A DNA stretch of 64,000 nucleotides, from positions 1-64,000 of IMG/VR virus record IMGVR_UViG_3300047586_000066; one strand, 5' to 3'. The translations under genes were made by a program, and so were the position numbers. Under the pieces are notes generated by a model. That model did not search any database, was not told the origin of the DNA, and saw only the letters and a list, made by a program, of their open reading frames with translations. Positions 6,234-11,044 of the stretch are shown here, piece by piece. Origin of the DNA: a virus. Each line of letters starts with the position of its first letter. The first letter of the stretch is position 1.

Positions 6234-6310
6234 TGGTGTCCCGTGCGGGATTTGAACCCGCGATCCCCGGAGTGAAATTCCGATATCCTTGGCCACTAGA
6301 CGAACGGGAC
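6234..6310 (-). tRNA. tRNA-Glu(TTC)
   Basis: Acceptor GTCCCGT/ACGGGAC, anticodon arm TCGGA-AT TTC AC-TCCGG, T arm GCGGG TTCAAAT CCCGC, encoded CCA. Confidence 0.93.
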
Positions 6311-6314
6311 AGAT

Positions 6315-6388
6315 TGGCAGGGGCGGAGAGGATCGAACTCCCGTGAGCCGGTCCAAAGCCGGCTGCCTGGCCACTTGGCTACGCCCCA
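6315..6388 (-). tRNA. tRNA-Gln(TTG)
   Basis: TGGGGCG/CGCCCCT, GCCGG-CT TTG GA-CCGGC, T loop TTCGATC, CCA. Confidence 0.92.
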
Positions 6389-6547
6389 ATAATTCATGGT
6401 CTGATACTTTGCTCTCTGCCTCTTACGCGATCCAACATATCCCATCGACAGTTGTGGCACCATGGCAAGATCGGACTTTTATACATCCTCCAATACGTCG
6501 CAGGACCTCCGCATTCGAAACAGAGTTTTCCGATTAAATCCAAAGGT

Positions 6548-6620
6548 TGGGGTGAGGGCGGGACTTGAACCCGATCAACCGGGCCACAACCGATTGCTCT
6601 AACCATTGAGCTACCCCCAC
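6548..6620 (-). tRNA. tRNA-His(GTG), atypical
   Basis: GTGGGGG/CCCTCAC, D arm GCTCAATGGTTAGAGC, ATCGG-TT GTG GC-CCGGT, C73, CCA; 4-bp T stem and no genomic G-1. Confidence 0.8.
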
Positions 6621-6626
6621 TATAAA

Positions 6627-6716
6627 TGCCGGAAGAAGGGTTCGAACCTTCATGCTTGAGTTGTAATAAGCCTGGGATTTTAAGTCCCATGTGTCTGCCA
6701 CTTCCACCATTCCGGC
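6627..6716 (-). tRNA. tRNA-Leu(TAA)
   Basis: GCCGGAA/TTCCGGC, TGGGA-CT TAA AA-TCCCA, long variable arm, A73; CCA not encoded. Confidence 0.92.
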
Positions 6717-6723
6717 TTACACA

Positions 6724-6812
6724 TGCCGTGGAGGCATGAACCAGGGTTTCGATCCCTGCGGGGCCGCCCCCTATTAACCAGCGAACTCATGGACTCGTCG
6801 CCCTCCACGGCA
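6724..6812 (-). ncRNA. tRNA-like structured RNA enclosed in an 11-bp stem
   Basis: TGCCGTGGAGG/CCTCCACGGCA outer stem, inner CATGAGT/GTTCATG, T-like arm CAGGG ATCGAAA CCCTG; sits in a tRNA slot between tRNA-Arg and tRNA-Leu. Confidence 0.55.
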
Positions 6813-6817
6813 ATCTT

Positions 6818-6893
6818 TGGCATGCCCGGCAGGATTCGAACCTGCGACCCTCTGTTTAGAAAACAGGTACTCTGTCCTCTGAGTTACGGGCAT
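6818..6893 (-). tRNA. tRNA-Arg(TCT)
   Basis: ATGCCCG/CGGGCAT, CCTGT-TT TCT AA-ACAGA, GCAGG TTCGAAT CCTGC, CCA. Confidence 0.93.
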
Positions 6894-6896
6894 GCA

Positions 6897-6973
6897 TGGT
6901 CGGGGAGACTGGATTCGAACCAGCGCATTTCACGGTCCCAGGCCGTGAGCCTTCCCAGCTTGGCCACTCCCCG
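6897..6973 (-). tRNA. tRNA-Pro(TGG)
   Basis: CGGGGAG/CTCCCCG, CACGG-CC TGG GA-CCGTG (C at 33), GCTGG TTCGAAT CCAGT, CCA. Confidence 0.9.
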
Positions 6974-6980
6974 ATTGTCA

Positions 6981-7214
6981 TCATTCCACTTTGATGAAGT
7001 AAATGAAAGGATCTCTGCCGAGAAAAACCAGCTCTCCATCCAAGAACAGAGCTGTTTGTCCCTGATATGAGTCCGTGGCAAGAGAATCTGCTTTGAATTC
7101 CAGATTCGCGACAGACGATCCGACTGACATTTTCACGCTTACAGTTCTGACTTTTTTGAAGTTTGTCACCTTGATGCGGACGTCAGAAGTATTCGACTTT
7201 GAGGTTTTCTTCAT
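6981..7214 (-). CDS. Hypothetical protein
   Basis: 77-aa ORF, RBS GGAGG. Confidence 0.5.
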   Translation of the reverse strand: MKKTSKSNTSDVRIKVTNFKKVRTVSVKMSVGSSVANLEFKADSLATDSYQGQTALFLDGELVFLGRDPFIYFIKVE

Positions 7215-7512
7215 TCATTGCCGCCTCCACGCGGCTATCGATATCTTTGAGTTGTCCGAGTCTGCGGGCACACTCCAGCTTATGCCACGCCTGAAACTTT
7301 GACGAAACTATGAGTCTCTCGAATGCAGCTTTCTTGTTTTGAGCTTGGGAGCGGAATTCTCTTCCTTCTGCCATCGCCCCGGAGACCTCATGTGTTATCC
7401 GAACTCCGTTTTGATTGGAGTTCTGATGTTGGCCTCCGGGGCCGCCAGTACAGAAGGTCTGAATCTTGAAGTCCTTCTTTGTGAGACTGAACAGTAGTTT
7501 TTTCCCGTGCAC
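7183..7512 (-). CDS. Peptidyl-tRNA hydrolase / RF-1 domain protein (ArfB/PrfH-like)
   Basis: FCTGGPGGQHQN...GVRITH...RSQAQNKKAA; class I release-factor catalytic domain with no stop-recognition domain. Confidence 0.9.
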   Translation of the reverse strand: MHGKKLLFSLTKKDFKIQTFCTGGPGGQHQNSNQNGVRITHEVSGAMAEGREFRSQAQNKKAAFERLIVSSKFQAWHKLECARRLGQLKDIDSRVEAAMNEENLKVEYF

Positions 7513-7523
7513 TGGTGCACTCC

Positions 7524-7835
7524 TTACTGTCCGGCTGCCTGCTTCTCCAGCCGGTCAATCTCATCCTTGAGAGCCTGACGTTTCTCTTCTGCGGGCAGAA
7601 GAGATTCCAGCCGAGATTTCTTCTCCCGGATGAGCTTTTGGATTCGATCAGCGTTTCGAGACCGGATCTCACGCCGGATATCGGCGAGTTTGACGTCCAG
7701 GAATTCAGGAGCCTCAACAGCCAGAGTCACAAATTCATTCTGAACAGCTCGTCCGATCGCCGACAGAGCGACAAGATCTTCGATAGCAGTCACGCTATCG
7801 ATGTCGAACTTTCGGATTTCATCGATCAGGTACAT
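7524..7835 (-). CDS. Small coiled-coil protein downstream of Ro60
   Basis: ATG 7835 (MYLIDE) after AAGGAGG; helical, charged. Confidence 0.65.
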   Translation of the reverse strand: MYLIDEIRKFDIDSVTAIEDLVALSAIGRAVQNEFVTLAVEAPEFLDVKLADIRREIRSRNADRIQKLIREKKSRLESLLPAEEKRQALKDEIDRLEKQAAGQ

Positions 7836-7851
7836 GTTCCTACCTCCTTTC

Positions 7852-9390
7852 TTAGTCTTCGGATTGCGAACCATAATTGAAAGCCTCCTTGAGAGTCAGA
7901 AGCGGAGTCGCCAGGACTTCATCAACCAGGCTGTACCGGTTCGTTCTCATGGTTTTGACCAGGTTTGCCACGGAATAGTAATCGATGGTTCCCTTGGTCA
8001 AATCGAATTCCTGGAGGTCGAATCCATTGCTCTTCATCGACACAGCCAGATCGACGTCGCCCCAGCCCTGTGCTCCCTTCGCGCAACGATACAGGTAAAC
8101 AGGAACCTGTTTGTCGGCGAACTTGGAATAAAGCTGGTACGCATTCGCAAAGATGGGAGGAGTGTTCTCCTGGGCATCCGAGATAATAGCAATGCCGTCG
8201 AGCTCTTCTTTCCCTTCCAGAGCACGCGCAAGTCCGCAACCGATCGATGTCCCGCCCATGGCGTTTATATTCCGTGTCCTTTTAACGATCTCATCATAAG
8301 CCATGTTGGTGACGTCAATGGTTTGAGGAGTCTGGTCGAAAAAGCTCAGGGAGACTTTACCCATTGCCATTTTCGCCAGGACTCCGGCAACCATGCGGGC
8401 TACCTCTATGGTTGCTCCCATGGACCCAGACTTATCACCCAGCACCAGCCAGTTACCCTCTACGGCGCCAAGCGCCTGAATCTGTTTTTCCTGAACAGAG
8501 TTCAGCTTCGCCTTGAGCTTCTCATCTCCGATAGCTTCCGCGGCTCGAGATGTCTTGAAGGTGGACTTCTTGGACTTCGAAGCCTTTTCCAGCGCCTCTT
8601 CGTATGCCGCTCGAAGAGCAGGGTTGTCTTTGATACCCATCTTCTCCAGCATCTTTGTGCTGTTGATCAACTGTAAAGACGTCATCCCTTGGATCAGAGC
8701 CAGTACGACATCCGGATCCTTTGCCTTCTCACCCAGAGCACCCATAACAATCATCGGAGGAAGATTCTTTTCGAGAATCGTTCCCGCTATTTCCCTGGGA
8801 CTCATGTCCTTCAGGTGGGCCACGGCATGAAATACGCTGCCAGCCGGCAACGGCGATCTGACGGGCTTCCGTCCTTCGGCCTTTGCCTTCAGGCGTTCGT
8901 CCAGCGTATGACCGAAAATAACAATGTTCACGTAATCCGACCCAGGCTTTACGTCCGCAAGGGCGTAGAGTTCGTGAAGCACCGCTCGGTGCTGGATGGC
9001 CATTCGTTCCCATCCGTTCTTTTCCTTCTCATGCAAATAGGTTCCGATGAACCGTTTCAACGTCTTGCCATGGCCTGGGGTCCTGACCTCGAGGGCAAAG
9101 CGATAAGCCTTCAAGAGTTCCCTGGGATTCAATAAAGACAGCGCAGCCAGAGAGTTCTCGATGAATTCCTTGGGAAAATCAGAAACCATCAAGGAAACTA
9201 TAGGCAGAGCTGCCTTGGCATCGCGTATCTGCCCATTGATGCGATCCCAGGCAATCATGTGAGCGAAGAATTCCGGATCATTCGAAGCAGCCAGTTTCCC
9301 CACGCGCACGTATTCATTGAGTTTTCCGTGCGGAGATTTGCTGAGTTCAGACAAAATTTGGTTCTTGGTTACTTTGATGGTCTCGGTCAT
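7852..9390 (-). CDS. Ro60/Rsr-like TROVE + vWA RNA-binding protein
   Basis: ATG 9390 (MTETIKV) after AAGGAG; about 512 aa; helical N-terminal region (DPEFFAHMIAW...IRD), C-terminal vWA with MIDAS LVLGDKSGSM, GGTSIG, IISDAQEN; flanked by Y-like RNAs and tRNAs. Confidence 0.82.
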   Translation of the reverse strand: MTETIKVTKNQILSELSKSPHGKLNEYVRVGKLAASNDPEFFAHMIAWDRINGQIRDAKAALPIVSLMVSDFPKEFIENSLAALSLLNPRELLKAYRFALEVRTPGHGKTLKRFIGTYLHEKEKNGWERMAIQHRAVLHELYALADVKPGSDYVNIVIFGHTLDERLKAKAEGRKPVRSPLPAGSVFHAVAHLKDMSPREIAGTILEKNLPPMIVMGALGEKAKDPDVVLALIQGMTSLQLINSTKMLEKMGIKDNPALRAAYEEALEKASKSKKSTFKTSRAAEAIGDEKLKAKLNSVQEKQIQALGAVEGNWLVLGDKSGSMGATIEVARMVAGVLAKMAMGKVSLSFFDQTPQTIDVTNMAYDEIVKRTRNINAMGGTSIGCGLARALEGKEELDGIAIISDAQENTPPIFANAYQLYSKFADKQVPVYLYRCAKGAQGWGDVDLAVSMKSNGFDLQEFDLTKGTIDYYSVANLVKTMRTNRYSLVDEVLATPLLTLKEAFNYGSQSED

Positions 9391-9407
9391 GACGGCACTC
9401 CTTTTAA

Positions 9408-9497
9408 TCGCTGGAAGTCGATCGGCTTGGGTAGACAAAGGGCACAAGGCCCTCCGCCTCATGTGTTCAAGACATGTAGGCCAGTCAGTACCAGCGA
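9408..9497 (-). ncRNA. Y-RNA-like unit Y5 (payload: UGA anticodon-like arm plus hairpin)
   Basis: TCGCTGG-TACTGAC-TGGCCT-ACATG...AAGCCG-ATCGACTT-CCAGCGA; hairpin CATGT CTTGAAC ACATG. Confidence 0.75.
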
Positions 9498-9504
9498 AAC
9501 TTAA

Positions 9505-9639
9505 TGGCGGCAAGTCGGTGAGGCTTTTTTGCTTGACGAACCCCCCATAAGGTAAAAGGTGGGGGGTCCAGGATTTGAACCTGGGTTGACTTCGTGTTAT
9601 GAAGTTGTCTTAACCATGTATCCTCATCAGTGACCGCCA
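9505..9639 (-). ncRNA. Y-RNA-like unit Y4 (tRNA permuted in the D loop)
   Basis: TGGCGG-TCACTGA-TGAGG-ATACATG...CCTCA-CCGACTT-GCCGCCA; order 3' D half, anticodon arm, T arm CCAGG TTCAAAT CCTGG, closed acceptor ACCCCCC/GGGGGGT, 5' D half. Confidence 0.82.
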
Positions 9640-9645
9640 AACTCA

Positions 9646-9712
9646 TTGGCTCCCGACCCACGATGGGAATTTCCGCAAATTACAAACCGTTAGGTTCCTT
9701 TACGAGAGCCAA
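9646..9712 (-). ncRNA. Structured ncRNA Z2 (second type)
   Basis: TTGGCTCTC/GGGAGCCAA closing stem, GTAAA, CCCA-TCG-TGGG hairpin. Confidence 0.55.
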
Positions 9713-9716
9713 ACTC

Positions 9717-9795
9717 TTTGGCCTCCCACCCTTTGGGACTGTCTCCTCTTTCCTCAGAAACAAACAGGCCAAACAGGACATTTACAGAGGCCAAA
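9717..9795 (-). ncRNA. Structured ncRNA Z1 (second type)
   Basis: TTTGGCCTC/GAGGCCAAA closing stem, GTAAA, TGTC/GACA, CCC-AAA-GGG. Confidence 0.55.
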
Positions 9796-9798
9796 CTC

Positions 9799-10110
9799 TT
9801 ATTTTCTAAGCTCTGGGGGGACAAACGCATCTTCCTTGATGTTCTGCTCCGCTAAAACCGTATGATCTTTCTGCAAGCTGTTCAAGATCGCTGCCAGGAT
9901 TCTCCAGTACCAGCGTTTGTCCTTTCCCCTATTGCATCGGCTCGAGATCGTTTCCCCGGGAAGTCCGCCGAGGAGTGCGTTGAAAAACTCGTCGATTCCG
10001 ATCAGGAGGTAATAGATAAAGAGTCTCCAGCCGCGCTTCCTCCCATTGAGGATAGCTGTCAGCACAATGACTCCGAGAAGGAGCCAGAAGAATCCTTTTA
10101 CCCAGATCAT
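9799..10110 (-). CDS. Small membrane protein inside the ncRNA array
   Basis: ATG 10110 after AGGAGG; two hydrophobic segments; IDEFFNALLGGLPGETISSR motif seen in small phage membrane proteins. Confidence 0.7.
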   Translation of the reverse strand: MIWVKGFFWLLLGVIVLTAILNGRKRGWRLFIYYLLIGIDEFFNALLGGLPGETISSRCNRGKDKRWYWRILAAILNSLQKDHTVLAEQNIKEDAFVPPELRK

Positions 10111-10129
10111 CGTTTCCTCCTGAATTTGC

Positions 10130-10252
10130 TTGGCCTGCAAGTCGGCTAAGGTTTCATTGCGTCTCCCACTCGGGAGCCCCCCCATACTGTGATTTGTGGA
10201 GGGGGGCCGATGTGATCGGCTTCACATGTACCCTTATTCAGTAACAGGCCAA
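10130..10252 (-). ncRNA. Y-RNA-like unit Y3 (degenerate permuted tRNA-like payload)
   Basis: TTGGCCTG-TTACTGA-ATAAGGG-TACATG...CCTTAG-CCGACTT-GCAGGCCAA; GCCGA/TCGGC arm, CCCCTCC/GGGGGGG stem, CTCCC GAGT GGGAG. Confidence 0.75.
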
Positions 10253-10258
10253 ATTCTA

Positions 10259-10401
10259 TGGCGGCAAGTCGATCAGCTCGTTGTCGTCGCGTTTGCCATT
10301 TCCGCCATCCCCCCACAAGTAGGGGGAGTAGGAATCGAACCTACAATCTCCCTTTCGGGAAAAACGGGCCCTAAGCCATGTAAGCTCCAAAGTAGACGCC
10401 A
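10259..10401 (-). ncRNA. Y-RNA-like unit Y2 (tRNA-Leu(UAG) permuted in the anticodon stem; YrlA-like T-acceptor-D order)
   Basis: TGGCG-TCTACTTTG-GAGCTT-ACATG...GAGCTG-ATCGACTT-GCCGCCA; variable arm TTTCCC GAAA GGGAGA, T arm GTAGG TTCGATT CCTAC, closed acceptor TCCCCCT/GGGGGGA, D arm GCGGAAATGGCAAACGC. Confidence 0.85.
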
Positions 10402-10410
10402 AATGTTTAT

Positions 10411-10543
10411 GTTCCCTGGAAGTCGATCAGCTTCTCCCTTGCGGGAATCGAATAGATGGAATCGAACCACCTACACACAGAGTTCAAATCTGTTGCTCTA
10501 CCAAATGAGCTATATTCATGTAAGCTAGTCAGTACCAGGGAAC
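10411..10543 (-). ncRNA. Y-RNA-like unit Y1 (tRNA-like payload in normal order, UGA anticodon)
   Basis: GTTCCCTGG-TACTGAC-TAGCTT-ACATG...AAGCTG-ATCGACTT-CCAGGGAAC; D arm GCTCATTTGGTAGAGC, ACAGA-TT TGA AC-TCTGT, T arm GGTGG TTCGATT CCATC. Confidence 0.82.
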
Positions 10544-10546
10544 GAT

Positions 10547-11044
10547 TTAATTAGTGCGAATGATCTGCCAGTGTCCGTCTTTGGTCCGCGTCACCCTCGG
10601 GTTTGAGCTCTTCATGTCCTTATGAAGGATCCCGTAGAGTGTTTGTATCGGACGCTTCCCTTTGACCGCCTGCCCTTCAGCTTCAAGCTCTTTCAGGAGT
10701 TCCGGTGTACTGTACCGGCCACGTACCAGAAGTTTGAGAACGTTCTGGATAATTCCCGTTCGGCTTCTCCTTGGCTTGAGATTAGGCGCGGCCAGACTGA
10801 TTGGCTTTGCCTTCTGAGAAGCGGCCTTTAATAGACTCGCTGGTTTTGAGTGGAGTGTTGGGTTCCGAGATGTCCCATTCGTCAGAACCTTGTCGATCTC
10901 CTTAACCAAAGAATCAGCGATGTCTCTGTGTTGGCAGAGATCCGACCGCAAGCCCTTGAGTCTAGTAGTCATTTCGGTTCCAAGTACGGCGTTCATCTTT
11001 TTACCCTCGCCCATTACTCTACGCACGCGCTTATTTCTTGTCAA
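10547..11044 (-). CDS. Winged-helix (HARE-HTH-like) DNA-binding protein
   Basis: C-terminal VLKLLVRGRYSTPELLKEL...GKRPIQTLYGIL...GHWQI. Confidence 0.55.
   Translation of the reverse strand: MTRNKRVRRVMGEGKKMNAVLGTEMTTRLKGLRSDLCQHRDIADSLVKEIDKVLTNGTSRNPTLHSKPASLLKAASQKAKPISLAAPNLKPRRSRTGIIQNVLKLLVRGRYSTPELLKELEAEGQAVKGKRPIQTLYGILHKDMKSSNPRVTRTKDGHWQIIRTN

What the first reader, a model, noticed from the sequence alone, without database searches (positions are those of the whole stretch)
7183..10543. Ro60 operon with a modular array of five Y-like RNAs, each carrying a different tRNA-derived payload
Seen: five minus-strand units directly upstream of the TROVE-vWA gene (10411-10543, 10259-10401, 10130-10252, 9505-9639, 9408-9497), with neighbouring RNA units only 4-9 nt apart. 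Each has an outer stem whose sequence differs but stays paired (GTTCCCTGG/CCAGGGAAC, TGGCG/CGCCA, TTGGCCTG/CAGGCCAA, TGGCGG/CCGCCA, TCGCTGG/CCAGCGA). Each then has ACTGA (ACTTT in Y2) opposite an invariant CGACTT, a covarying inner stem and an invariant TACATG. Payloads differ: normal-order tRNA body, tRNA opened in the anticodon stem, degenerate permuted tRNA, tRNA opened in the D loop, isolated anticodon arm. Downstream in the same direction lie Ro60, a small coiled-coil protein, a GGQ peptidyl-tRNA hydrolase and six tRNAs. Established: Ro60/Rsr binds Y RNAs through a bulged GUC-C-GA/UYGAC helix, and bacterial YrlA RNAs mimic tRNA with one fixed T-acceptor-D permutation. Inference: a constant Ro-binding handle with interchangeable, differently permuted tRNA cargos is not the standard YrlA design. 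It may be an undescribed phage RNP system for tRNA repair, tRNA supply or decoying of host anticodon nucleases.
Basis: partly seen in the sequence, partly recalled or inferred. Interest (0 to 1): 0.97.

Follow-up and report, generated by a model that had tools for sequence, protein, structure and literature searches.

The report
Phage Ro60 with tRNA-mimic RNA array
A 100-kb peat-soil phage encodes a hidden relative of the RNA-binding ring protein Ro60, preceded by five small RNAs that share one conserved "handle" and each carry a differently wired imitation of tRNA; the pairing recurs in several hundred phages and has not been described in the literature I could search.

Summary
Five minus-strand units at the stated coordinates share one handle: outer stem, YAC, U·G and G-C pairs, inner stem, UACAUG, payload, CG-ACUU, outer stem. 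A covariance model finds exactly these five in the 102.6-kb genome. It finds 199 more-or-less identical handles in 54 of 57 related phage loci, all on the strand of the same gene and none elsewhere. The stems covary strongly.

The neighbouring 512-aa protein has no Pfam TROVE hit. Its predicted structure nevertheless matches only Ro60/Rsr over its full length (Z 18, about 440 aligned residues), and its MIDAS site is intact. A 103-aa helical gene follows it in 50 of 67 loci.

The payloads derive from tRNA. The handle is joined at the acceptor end, the anticodon arm, the D loop or the variable region, or the payload is a bare anticodon arm. Acceptor stems and CCA ends have decayed and the anticodons are unconstrained, so these are mimics and not working tRNAs.

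My best reading is a new branch of Ro60/Y-RNA particles. Binding and function (tether or decoy in conflicts over tRNA) are inferred. No RNA data exist.

No Rfam family matches, including YrlA. This scan has noted the same kind of array on other phage DNA, including sister genomes of this family.

The parts
10411..10543 (-). Y-like RNA 1 (type A). The handle has a 9-bp outer stem. The payload is a normal-order tRNA body (D arm, anticodon arm with loop UUUGAAC, T arm) whose weakened acceptor stem continues into the handle. There is no CCA.
   Evidence: MFE -48.8, z -4.1; tRNA model 53.4 bits at 10447-10519; 59.4 bits; 6/7 acceptor pairs, tail UUCC
10259..10401 (-). Y-like RNA 2 (type C). The handle is slightly degenerate (ACUUU in place of ACUG). 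The payload order is a short anticodon-like hairpin, a V hairpin, the T arm, a closed acceptor hairpin and the D arm, which is the YrlA-like order.
   Evidence: T arm plus acceptor hairpin seen by the tmRNA model; 33.3 bits, E 2e-8; orthologues in L001, L002, L003, L005
10130..10252 (-). Y-like RNA 3 (type D). The handle carries three hairpins: a T-arm-like hairpin with a 5-nt loop, a G/C acceptor-like hairpin whose loop starts with U-CCA, and a third hairpin. This is a degenerate permuted tRNA.
   Evidence: z -4.05; 46.2 bits; orthologues in four relatives
9505..9639 (-). Y-like RNA 4 (type E). A complete tRNA body is opened in the D loop. The order is D-loop 3' half, anticodon arm (loop AUAACAC), T arm, closed acceptor hairpin, D-stem 5' half.
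   Evidence: z -4.3; 52.6 bits; ARAGORN rebuilds a 77-nt tRNA across the joined ends, with the junction at position 17
9408..9497 (-). Y-like RNA 5 (type G). The handle carries only an anticodon-arm-like hairpin (loop CUUGAAC) and a second long hairpin. It ends 17 nt before the Ro60-like start codon.
   Evidence: z -4.1; 66.4 bits; 59.5 bits
7852..9390 (-). Divergent Ro60-like protein of 512 aa. It has a helical-repeat ring plus a vWA domain with an invariant MIDAS motif (D319, S321, S323, T381, D405).
   Evidence: no Pfam TROVE hit, only weak vWA; phrog_850 'RNA-binding protein', 8e-7; pLDDT 83; Foldseek top 13 hits all Ro60/Rsr/phage Ro60; Z 18.1, 440 aligned residues to D. radiodurans Rsr
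7524..7835 (-). Conserved 103-aa helical partner gene. It has a strong Shine-Dalgarno sequence and starts 17 nt after the Ro60-like stop codon. The family is unknown.
   Evidence: homologue directly downstream in 50 of 67 loci; pLDDT 90, three long helices; no significant fold match
7183..7512 (-). 109-aa stand-alone GGQ (RF-1 domain) protein. This is operon context in this phage and its closest relatives only.
   Evidence: PF00472, 7e-15; present in only 5 of 67 loci
6234..6973 (-). Six ordinary phage tRNA genes (Pro, Arg, Leu, His, Gln, Glu). This is context: the module sits inside the phage tRNA region.
   Evidence: 6-7 of 7 acceptor pairs; five of the six encode CCA

Best explanation
This is a phage Ro60/Y-RNA-type ribonucleoprotein module of a previously unrecognised branch.

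The array is probably transcribed with the upstream ORF as one RNA. It is probably cut at the short A/U-rich linkers into five stable small RNAs.

Each RNA has two parts. The first is a constant handle: a 7-9-bp outer stem, an asymmetric internal loop (YAC opposite ACUU) closed by conserved U·G and G-C pairs, a covarying inner stem ending in an invariant G-C pair, and then UACAUG at the junction. This handle is most likely the docking site for the Ro60-like ring encoded immediately downstream. The second part is a tRNA-derived module that points away from the ring.

The modules most likely descend from adjacent or duplicated phage tRNA genes framed at different offsets, because the handle is attached at different points. 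In Y1 it is attached at the acceptor end. In Y2 it is in the anticodon arm. In Y4 it is in the D loop. In relatives it is also in the variable region. Y5 keeps only an anticodon arm. Each RNA would therefore expose a different face of the tRNA shape.

The modules have lost what a decoding tRNA needs but keep the elbow and a well-formed anticodon loop. They therefore most likely act as tRNA mimics. They would tether the Ro60 ring, and perhaps its 103-aa partner, to tRNA-binding factors of the host or phage, or they would sequester such factors. This would form part of the translation and tRNA maintenance region of the phage.

Shown here: the RNA family and its structure, its exclusive linkage to the gene, the Ro60 fold, and the mimic (non-tRNA) nature of the payloads.

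Inferred: expression and processing, Ro60 binding to the handle, and the tether or decoy role.
For: RNA family:
- CM R1 gives 133 hits and R2 gives 199 hits in 0.7 Mb of 57 sources. All are on the gene strand and upstream of the gene. 54 of 57 sources have at least one.
- Five independent MAG contigs also carry the units upstream of the gene.
- A motif-only scan of 2.9 M viral contigs gave 75 stretches. Only 6 were CM-positive, and all 6 lie in genomes with the Ro60-like gene.

Structure:
- 94% of cells are paired and the covariation score is 0.835, against 0.18 in shuffles (0/500) and 0.12 or less when the partners are slid. All 7 outer-stem pairs show double changes. U·G occurs in 100/112 and G-C in 102/112.
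- The A of YAC, UACA and the A of ACUU are each invariant in 112/112.
- Free-energy folds recover the handle without constraints.

Protein:
- Foldseek and VIA-align hit only Ro60/Rsr/phage phiLo Ro60 over the full length.
- The MIDAS residues are invariant.
- The family has about 350 clusters at 50% identity with E <= 1e-30.

Payloads are mimics:
- 7/7 acceptor pairs occur in 1/19 embedded bodies against 268/307 free tRNAs.
- NCCA is encoded in 4/19 embedded bodies against 276/307 free tRNAs.
- Non-Arg A34 anticodons occur in 4/22 embedded bodies against 1/300 free tRNAs, p = 8e-5.
- Orthologous units of close relatives keep the body but change the anticodon: UGA, UUA, GAA, UUC.

Other:
- The type order in the array is conserved among relatives, with A first and G last.
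- Linkers are 5-20 nt in 59 of 101 neighbour pairs and 73% A+U.

Precedent: Ro60 orthologues are encoded beside their Y RNAs on the same strand, and bacterial and phage Y RNAs carry tRNA-like domains (PMC4201824). Phage phiLo Ro60 binds two upstream Y-like RNAs (PMC12135203).
Against: - There is no expression or end-mapping data. The only run holding the stretch is the source DNA metagenome.
- There is no binding evidence.
- The handle lacks the known Ro60 recognition sequences on its 5' strand (GGUCCGA/UUGACC in animals, GNCGAAN0-1G in bacteria). The only resemblance is a 5'-CG-3'/5'-UG-3' step followed by A, and it sits on the 3' strand, so the polarity relative to the payload is inverted.
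- The Ro60 assignment rests on a predicted fold. Pfam TROVE and a family profile searched against PDB sequences do not detect it.
- The invariance figures are partly circular, because the hits were selected with a model that contains those motifs.
- No promoter or terminator signals stand out.
Confidence: 0.68

Rival explanations
1. The units are precursors of working tRNAs, including circularly permuted tRNA genes. In this view the handle is a processing or splicing signal that is cut out, the payload ends are ligated, and the acceptor hairpin is opened by RNase P and 3' processing, as for the permuted tRNAs of Cyanidioschyzon.
For: - Types A, B/C, E and F contain nearly all tRNA parts.
- ARAGORN rebuilds tRNAs across the joined payload ends, for example Y4 as a 77-nt tRNA.
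- Some acceptor-hairpin loops still begin with N-CCA or N-CCU.
- The arrays lie within phage tRNA clusters.
- M. smegmatis YrlA is cleaved by RNase P and receives CCA (PMC4201824).
Against: - Acceptor stems are decayed and CCA is mostly lost.
- A34 and stop anticodons and 2- or 4-nt 'anticodons' are enriched.
- For anticodon-arm-opened units, only 13 of 37 can form a perfect anticodon stem at any junction, and no single junction serves more than 5.
- Types D and G (72 of 150 units) have no complete tRNA body.
- Type A would not need splicing but carries the same handle.
- The phage has no RtcB, RNA ligase or CCA-adding enzyme.
- The handle is not a bulge-helix-bulge motif.
Confidence: 0.1
2. 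The handle is real but is not the Ro60 docking site. It would be recognised by another factor (the 103-aa partner, a host RNase or a modification enzyme), or it would be a self-processing element. The Ro60-like ring would then act on these RNAs as substrates (quality control of tRNA-like transcripts) or on other RNAs.
For: - The handle does not carry the published Ro60 recognition motifs (PMC4201824).
- A second conserved protein is always present.
- Ro60 also binds misfolded RNAs through its central hole (PMC12135203, introduction).
- A small internal loop with about 12 invariant nucleotides could be a catalytic or processing core.
Against: - The linkage to the Ro60-like gene is strict and on the same strand in every genome examined, including the one where the array lies downstream of the gene. 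This is the genomic signature of Ro60 with its Y RNAs.
- No Rfam ribozyme family matches, even at E <= 10.
- Helices flanking an opened internal loop match the published description of how Ro60 splays the Y RNA stem.
Confidence: 0.17
3. The units are chance repeats or decaying tRNA pseudogenes with no function.
For: The payloads are decayed tRNAs, and Y2 has a weakened handle.
Against: - There is massive compensatory covariation.
- Handle, unit types and array order are conserved between phages whose Ro60-like proteins are only 36-67% identical.
- There were no hits in the controls.
Confidence: 0.01

Closest known systems
Bacterial and mycobacteriophage Rsr (Ro60) with YrlA-type Y RNAs (Rfam RF02553; Chen et al. 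2014, PMC4201824)
   Same: - Small RNAs are encoded within a few kb of a Ro60 gene and on its strand.
- The RNAs have a modular build: a protein-binding stem plus a tRNA-like domain.
- The T arm, closed acceptor hairpin, D arm order of Y2 and of types B/C.
- A YUAY-like UUAC at the stem/tRNA junction.
- The link to tRNA biology.
   Different: - No match to the RF02553 model.
- No GNCGAAN0-1G near the 5' end. The conserved CGAC sits on the 3' strand.
- There is an extra invariant UACAUG.
- Arrays hold up to 7-9 units rather than 1-4 RNAs.
- The handle is attached at five different points of the tRNA shape, and the short anticodon-arm-only units have no tRNA body.
- The protein is invisible to Pfam TROVE, so TROVE-based surveys would have missed it.
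Deinococcus radiodurans Yrn1 with Rsr and PNPase (RYPER)
   Same: Yrn1 is described as having its T arm and an anticodon-like arm in a different, normal-order arrangement, with the Ro-binding stem at the ends (PMC4201824). Type A units (Y1) are built this way.
   Different: - Yrn1 keeps both strands of the animal-type Ro60-binding helix, while this handle does not.
- The Yrn1 anticodon-like loop has 6 nt, while type A loops are canonical 7-nt loops with U33.
- No PNPase link has been tested here.
Thermus phage phiLo Ro60 with Yrl1/Yrl2 (PDB 9KOP, 9L5Y; PMC12135203)
   Same: A phage-encoded Ro60 with Y-like RNAs encoded upstream. It is among the best structural matches of the model (Foldseek E 1.5e-10; Z 17.6 and 16.1).
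   Different: - phiLo has two RNAs, defined by a CGAA motif in a large internal bulge, and no tRNA modules were reported.
- This locus has five RNAs with a different motif set and tRNA-derived payloads.
- Sequence identity is 15-17%.
Circularly permuted tRNA genes (Cyanidioschyzon merolae type)
   Same: The 3' half of a tRNA lies upstream of the 5' half, and the acceptor ends are joined by a short loop that sometimes still reads N-CCA.
   Different: There is no bulge-helix-bulge motif, no shared junction that restores the anticodon stem, decayed acceptor stems and CCA, and no ligase in the phage.

Membership tests
Ro60 / TROVE2 / Rsr proteins | Ring of helical (HEAT-like) repeats closed by a C-terminal vWA domain | tested here: met
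   The AlphaFold model has pLDDT 83. The top 13 Foldseek hits are all Ro60/Rsr/phage Ro60, with E from 1e-10 to 1e-6 and TM 0.51-0.63. VIA-align gives Z 15.5-18.1 over 412-440 aligned residues spanning residues 7-499.
Ro60 / TROVE2 / Rsr proteins | Sequence signature of the TROVE domain (Pfam PF05731) | tested here: not met
   The window protein and 8 distant family members have no TROVE hit at E <= 0.01. A family profile searched against PDB sequences finds no Ro60. The only hit is phrog_850 'RNA-binding protein' at 8e-7, over the C-terminal half.
Ro60 / TROVE2 / Rsr proteins | MIDAS motif (DxSxS ... T ... D) in the vWA domain | tested here: met
   D319, S321, S323, T381 and D405 are invariant in 30 sequences.
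Ro60 / TROVE2 / Rsr proteins | Binds Y RNAs on the outer surface and misfolded RNA ends in the central hole | not testable with these tools
   No protein-RNA modelling or experiment was available.
YrlA (Rfam RF02553) | Score at or above the family's gathering threshold (69 bits) | tested here: not met
   No YrlA match in the window at the gathering threshold, in 9300-10700 at E <= 10, or in the whole genome at E <= 0.001.
YrlA (Rfam RF02553) | GNCGAAN0-1G motif near the 5' end (the proposed Rsr site) | tested here: not met
   The 5' strand of the handle reads YACUG. The conserved N-CGACUU lies on the 3' strand.
YrlA (Rfam RF02553) | tRNA-like domain in the order (V), T arm, closed acceptor stem-loop, D arm | tested here: met
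   Met by Y2 and by types B/C in relatives. Not met by Y1, Y3, Y4 and Y5, which have other topologies.
YrlA (Rfam RF02553) | Encoded within about 4 kb of the Ro60 gene and on the same strand | tested here: met
   All 199 units plus the 18 in MAG contigs meet this. A few lie up to about 5.7 kb away (L066).
Animal-type Y RNA (Rfam RF00019) | Bulged helix GGUCCGA / UUGACC formed by the 5' and 3' ends | tested here: not met
   The helix is absent from all five units, and there is no Rfam match. Only the CG/UG step is shared.
tRNA (Rfam RF00005) | Cloverleaf matching the tRNA model | tested here: met
   Only the Y1 payload matches, at 53.4 bits against a threshold of 29. The Y4 partial match scores 16 bits, below threshold.
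tRNA (Rfam RF00005) | Intact 7-bp acceptor stem with a free N-CCA 3' end, as in the phage's own tRNA genes | tested here: not met
   Y1 has 6/7 pairs and the tail UUCC. Across loci, 1/19 embedded bodies have 7/7 pairs and 4/19 have NCCA, against 268/307 and 276/307 of free tRNAs.
Permuted tRNA genes | Joining the payload ends at a defined junction restores a canonical tRNA | tested here: inconclusive
   Units opened in the D loop or the variable loop rebuild at almost any junction, so the test has no power for them. Anticodon-arm-opened units rebuild in only 13 of 37 cases, and no shared junction serves more than 5.

The most novel reading that the evidence does not exclude
The array is a Ro60-anchored panel of tRNA decoys. 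Each unit presents a different face of tRNA (anticodon loop, elbow, or acceptor end), because the protein-binding handle is grafted at a different point of the L-shape. The panel would capture or mislead host tRNA-targeting defence nucleases and other tRNA-binding factors. The rapid switching of anticodons between sister phages would be the trace of an arms race, and the Ro60 ring would protect the decoys from exonucleases or hand the captured factors or damaged tRNA on for decay.
Probability: 0.15. Interest if true: 0.9.

Novelty: new variant of a known kind. Interest (0 to 1): 0.72.

Why it matters
Why bacterial Y RNAs imitate tRNA has been an open question since 2014. This family offers a natural experiment. 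One constant handle is fused to tRNA bodies in at least five topologies, replicated in hundreds of phages, with short units of 60-90 nt that suit binding and structural work.

The finding also shows that Ro60-type proteins are more widespread in phages than TROVE-based surveys can see. The family has about 350 clusters at 50% identity and none carries a Pfam TROVE hit.

Finally, it places Ro60 particles inside phage tRNA regions. That position links them to the current interest in phage-host conflict over tRNA. Minimal handles could also serve as portable tags for loading RNAs onto a Ro60 ring.

Tried and rejected
- **Rfam.** No Y_RNA, YrlA, ribozyme or other family covers the handle, at the gathering threshold or at E <= 10.
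- **Expression.** No RNA holder is listed for the stretch. The only holder is the probable source DNA metagenome, so I did not use read laying.
- **Mini-ORF idea** (the invariant AUG as a start codon whose stop is the anticodon). Distances to the first stop are alike in all three frames (median 9, 4 and 7 codons). 32 of 122 units have no in-frame stop, and only 11 of 122 have an SD-like sequence. Rejected.
- **Universal splice junction that rebuilds tRNAs.** None was found.
- **Complex prediction of the Ro60-like protein with the 103-aa partner.** No verdict. This is not evidence either way.
- **Fold search of the 103-aa partner.** No match at E <= 0.001, only generic helical rows.
- **Sequence-level links to Ro60.** phmmer and a family profile against PDB sequences and NCBIfam found none.
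- **INPHARED phages.** The only relative is one unannotated 595-kb uncultured phage at 29% identity.
- **Promoter and terminator scan.** Not above shuffled expectation.
- **Hammerhead.** I considered it because Y4 reads CUGAUGAG. Only CUG(A) is conserved in the family and no Rfam ribozyme matches. Rejected.
- **blastn** of the two extra hairpins and of the 6724-6812 element against the related loci found no relatives.
- **Reviews not held.** Two Ro60/Y RNA reviews could not be read, so the literature check is incomplete.

Full report
**1. What is in the sequence**

Read on the minus strand, 10543-9408 holds five units with the same architecture. Each has:
- an outer stem of 5-9 bp whose sequence differs between units;
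- a 3-nt stretch YAC;
- UG (UU in Y2);
- a variable inner stem;
- UACAUG;
- a payload of 40-110 nt;
- the 3' strand of the inner stem;
- N-CGACUU;
- the 3' strand of the outer stem.

The spacers are 9 nt (Y1-Y2), 6 nt (Y2-Y3) and 7 nt (Y4-Y5). Y3 and Y4 are 490 nt apart, and that gap holds a small ORF and two unrelated hairpins.

Unconstrained folding gives the same handle for Y1, Y3, Y4 and Y5. The outer stem closes an asymmetric internal loop (YAC opposite ACUU). The loop is followed by a U·G pair and a G-C pair formed by UG and CG, then by the inner stem. The z-scores are about -4.1 to -4.3. Y2, which reads ACUUU, does not fold this way on its own (z -1.6).

Rfam finds only a tRNA inside Y1, at 53 bits. 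It finds nothing for the handle, either at gathering thresholds or at E <= 10. The YrlA model RF02553 has no match in the whole genome.

**2. It is a family, and it is tied to one gene**

The 512-aa protein encoded 17 nt downstream of Y5 has more than 670 homologues in metagenomes, many on contigs of about 100 kb. At 50% clustering there are about 350 clusters with E <= 1e-30.

I fetched 67 related viral loci. A simple motif-plus-stem scan found 78 units on the gene strand and none on the other strand.

A covariance model built from 14 short units found 133 matches in 735 kb. All were on the gene strand and upstream of the gene, and in the window they were exactly the five units. A second model built from 112 matches found 199 units in 54 of 57 non-redundant sources. 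The window units scored 59.5, 59.4, 52.6, 46.2 and 33.3 bits. The whole 102,598-bp virus record contains no further copy.

Three further observations support the link:
- Five contigs binned into MAGs (mostly Acidobacteriota) that have upstream sequence also carry the units.
- I scanned all 2.9 M IMG/VR contigs with the bare motifs, without using the protein. This returned 75 stretches. Only six are CM-positive, and all six lie in genomes that encode the protein. In one of them the array lies downstream of the gene.
- The other 69 stretches, about 0.57 Mb, gave no CM hit. They serve as a specificity control.

**3. The structure is supported by covariation**

On the 112-unit alignment, 94.3% of cells form standard pairs, against 59% after shuffling. 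The covariation score is 0.835, against 0.18 after shuffling (0 of 500 shuffles reach it) and at most 0.12 when the partners are slid by 1-3 columns.

All seven outer-stem pairs and five of six inner-stem pairs show changes on both sides. The U·G pair is kept in 100 of 112 units and the next G-C pair in 102 of 112. The A of YAC, the UACA, the A of ACUU and a G-C pair at the top of the inner stem are invariant or nearly so.

Two caveats apply. The alignment is fitted to the model, and the hits were selected with a model that holds these motifs, so the invariance is partly circular. The stem covariation and the free-energy folds do not depend on that.

**4. The protein is a hidden Ro60**

Pfam gives only weak vWA hits and no TROVE hit, for this protein and for eight distant relatives. 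PHROGs gives phrog_850 'RNA-binding protein' at 8e-7, over the C-terminal half. Sequence and profile searches against PDB sequences do not find Ro60.

The AlphaFold model has pLDDT 83. It matches Ro60 proteins and nothing else over its full length:
- The first 13 Foldseek hits are Xenopus and human Ro60, D. radiodurans Rsr and Thermus phage phiLo Ro60, with E from 1e-10 to 1e-6.
- VIA-align gives Z 15.5-18.1 with 412-440 aligned residues. Isolated vWA domains follow at Z 14.

The MIDAS residues are invariant in the family. Because the family escapes the TROVE model, surveys that start from TROVE annotation, as in PMC4201824, would not have included it.

**5. A second conserved gene**

A 103-aa gene starts 17 nt after the Ro60-like stop codon and has a strong Shine-Dalgarno sequence. 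It has homologues in the same position in 50 of 67 loci. It is predicted to form three long helices (pLDDT 90) and has no significant fold match.

The GGQ (RF-1 domain) gene that follows is present in only five loci. The upstream 165-aa ORF is limited to close relatives. The core module is therefore the RNA array, the Ro60-like gene and the 103-aa gene.

**6. What the payloads are**

Comparison with four close relatives (Ro60-like identity 65-67%) shows that the units fall into orthologous types. Each type has its own outer-stem signature, and the order is conserved, with type A first and type G last.

| Type | Window unit | Payload |
|---|---|---|
| A | Y1 | Normal-order tRNA body whose short acceptor stem (it uses the AUG of UACAUG) runs into the handle |
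| B and C | Y2 is type C | Short anticodon-like hairpin, variable hairpin, T arm, closed acceptor hairpin and D arm; a tRNA opened in the 5' strand of the anticodon stem, which is the YrlA order |
| D | Y3 | The same plan, decayed |
| E | Y4 | A complete tRNA opened in the D loop |
| F | absent here, present in relatives | A tRNA opened in the variable region |
| G | Y5 | Only an anticodon-arm-like hairpin and one more hairpin |

I classified the 150 best units with ARAGORN run on doubled payloads:

| Class | Units |
|---|---|
| Acceptor-joined | 30 |
| Anticodon-arm-opened | 37 |
| Variable-region-opened | 8 |
| D-loop-opened | 3 |
| No complete tRNA body | 72 |

The closed acceptor hairpins often begin their loop with N-CCA or N-CCU. 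This fits descent from adjacent or duplicated tRNA genes that encode CCA, framed at different offsets. That origin is an inference.

**7. They are mimics, not tRNA genes**

| Feature | Handle-embedded bodies | Free phage tRNAs in the same loci |
|---|---|---|
| 7/7 acceptor pairs | 1/19 | 268/307 |
| N-CCA encoded | 4/19 | 276/307 |
| Non-Arg A34 anticodons | 4/22 | 1/300 (p = 8e-5) |

Several embedded bodies also have 2- or 4-nt 'anticodons'.

Orthologous type A units keep an almost invariant D arm and T loop but carry the anticodons UGA, UUA, GAA, UUC and UGA. The anticodon stems differ and remain compensated, and the 7-nt loop with U33 is kept. The tRNA shape is therefore under selection, while the decoding identity is not.

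The phage encodes no RtcB, no RNA ligase of PF09414 and no CCA-adding enzyme. For units opened in the anticodon arm, no common junction restores an anticodon stem.

The idea that the invariant AUG opens a mini-ORF fails, because there is no frame bias and hardly any SD sequences.

**8. How it most likely works**

The closest analogues are these:
- Ro60 orthologues are encoded next to their Y RNAs on the same strand.
- Bacterial and phage Y RNAs combine a Ro60-binding stem with a tRNA-like domain (PMC4201824).
- Phage phiLo Ro60 binds two upstream Y-like RNAs and, together with them, host PNPase (PMC12135203).

On that basis I read the handle as the docking site of the Ro60-like ring and the tRNA-derived part as the effector end.

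The handle is not the published site. GGUCCGA/UUGACC and GNCGAAN0-1G are both absent from the 5' strand. What is shared is a 5'-CG-3' paired with a 5'-UG-3' (a C-G pair and then a G·U pair) followed by an A at the edge of an opened helix. Here this lies on the 3' strand. If the ring reads it in the same way, the payload would leave the ring on the side where canonical Y RNAs have their ends. This is inference only.

The short A/U-rich linkers (59 of 101 neighbour pairs are 5-20 nt apart, mode 7, 73% A+U) and the lack of promoter or terminator signals suggest one transcript cut into units. No RNA data exist to test this.

The function is open. The module always sits in or beside large phage tRNA clusters, and in this phage next to a GGQ rescue-type protein. 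A role in tRNA-centred maintenance or counter-defence is therefore plausible, whether as a tether to tRNA-binding factors or as a decoy for them.

**9. Novelty**

I found no paper or Rfam family describing this handle or these arrays. Two review articles could not be read.

Two of the topologies have precedents: YrlA, and D. radiodurans Yrn1 with its normal-order arrangement. The new features are:
- the common handle with its own motif set;
- the array format with conserved unit types;
- the additional D-loop and variable-region permutations and the anticodon-arm-only units;
- the Ro60 clade that escapes TROVE models;
- the conserved 103-aa partner.

Notes of this scan report the same kind of 'handle plus tRNA mimic beside a Ro60-like gene' on other phage DNA. 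These include first-reader notes on sister genomes with the identical YACUG/UACAUG/CGACUU handle. Within the scan this is therefore a recurring find. Those notes are leads, not evidence.

I class the finding as a new variant of a known kind (Ro60/Y-RNA particles).

Noticed in passing
window 9644-9798 (-): Two tandem hairpin RNAs lie inside the array, each with a 9-10-bp closing stem that starts UUUGGC, like several outer stems. They lack YACUG, UACAUG and CGACUU. Folding z-scores are -3.0 and -2.3. blastn found no sequence relatives in the related loci.
   Followed up: partly
window 6724-6812 (-): A tRNA-like RNA sits between tRNA-Arg and tRNA-Leu, locked in an 11-bp stem (MFE -40.4). Its 10-nt 5' bulge with the preceding stem G reads GGCGACGAG. 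This puts a GNCGAC string on the 5' strand, in the position and orientation of the YrlA GNCGAA motif. It is followed by a CAUG-started acceptor-like helix. The handle models do not detect it, and blastn found no relatives.
   Followed up: partly
window 9799-10110 (-): A 103-aa ORF with its own Shine-Dalgarno sequence and a hydrophobic N-terminus (phrog_3342, 5.5e-12) is inserted between Y3 and Y4. None of the 67 related loci has it.
   Followed up: partly
window 7183-7512 (-): A stand-alone 109-aa GGQ/RF-1 domain protein (PF00472 7e-15; phrog_3122 4e-23) lacks codon-recognition domains. It is present after the Ro60 module in only 5 of 67 loci.
   Followed up: partly
L155:1501-4049 (IMG/VR contig of 102,210 bp): In this relative the RNA array (five units) lies downstream of the Ro60-like gene instead of upstream. 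The gene match contains one in-frame TAA.
   Followed up: no
L019:9437-9522, L009:2346-2420, L021:10987-11062, L019:4396-4466: ARAGORN calls free (not handle-embedded) tRNAs with stop-codon anticodons (UUA, CUA, UCA) in related phages. These are possible suppressor tRNAs or signs of recoding.
   Followed up: no
L033:2022-2434: ARAGORN calls a tmRNA gene (tag AEDNALPMAA) within the tRNA region upstream of the Ro60 module of a related phage.
   Followed up: no
window 6627-6716 (-): The phage tRNA-Leu(UAA) is the only one of the six free tRNAs here that does not encode CCA (its tail is AUUU).
   Followed up: no
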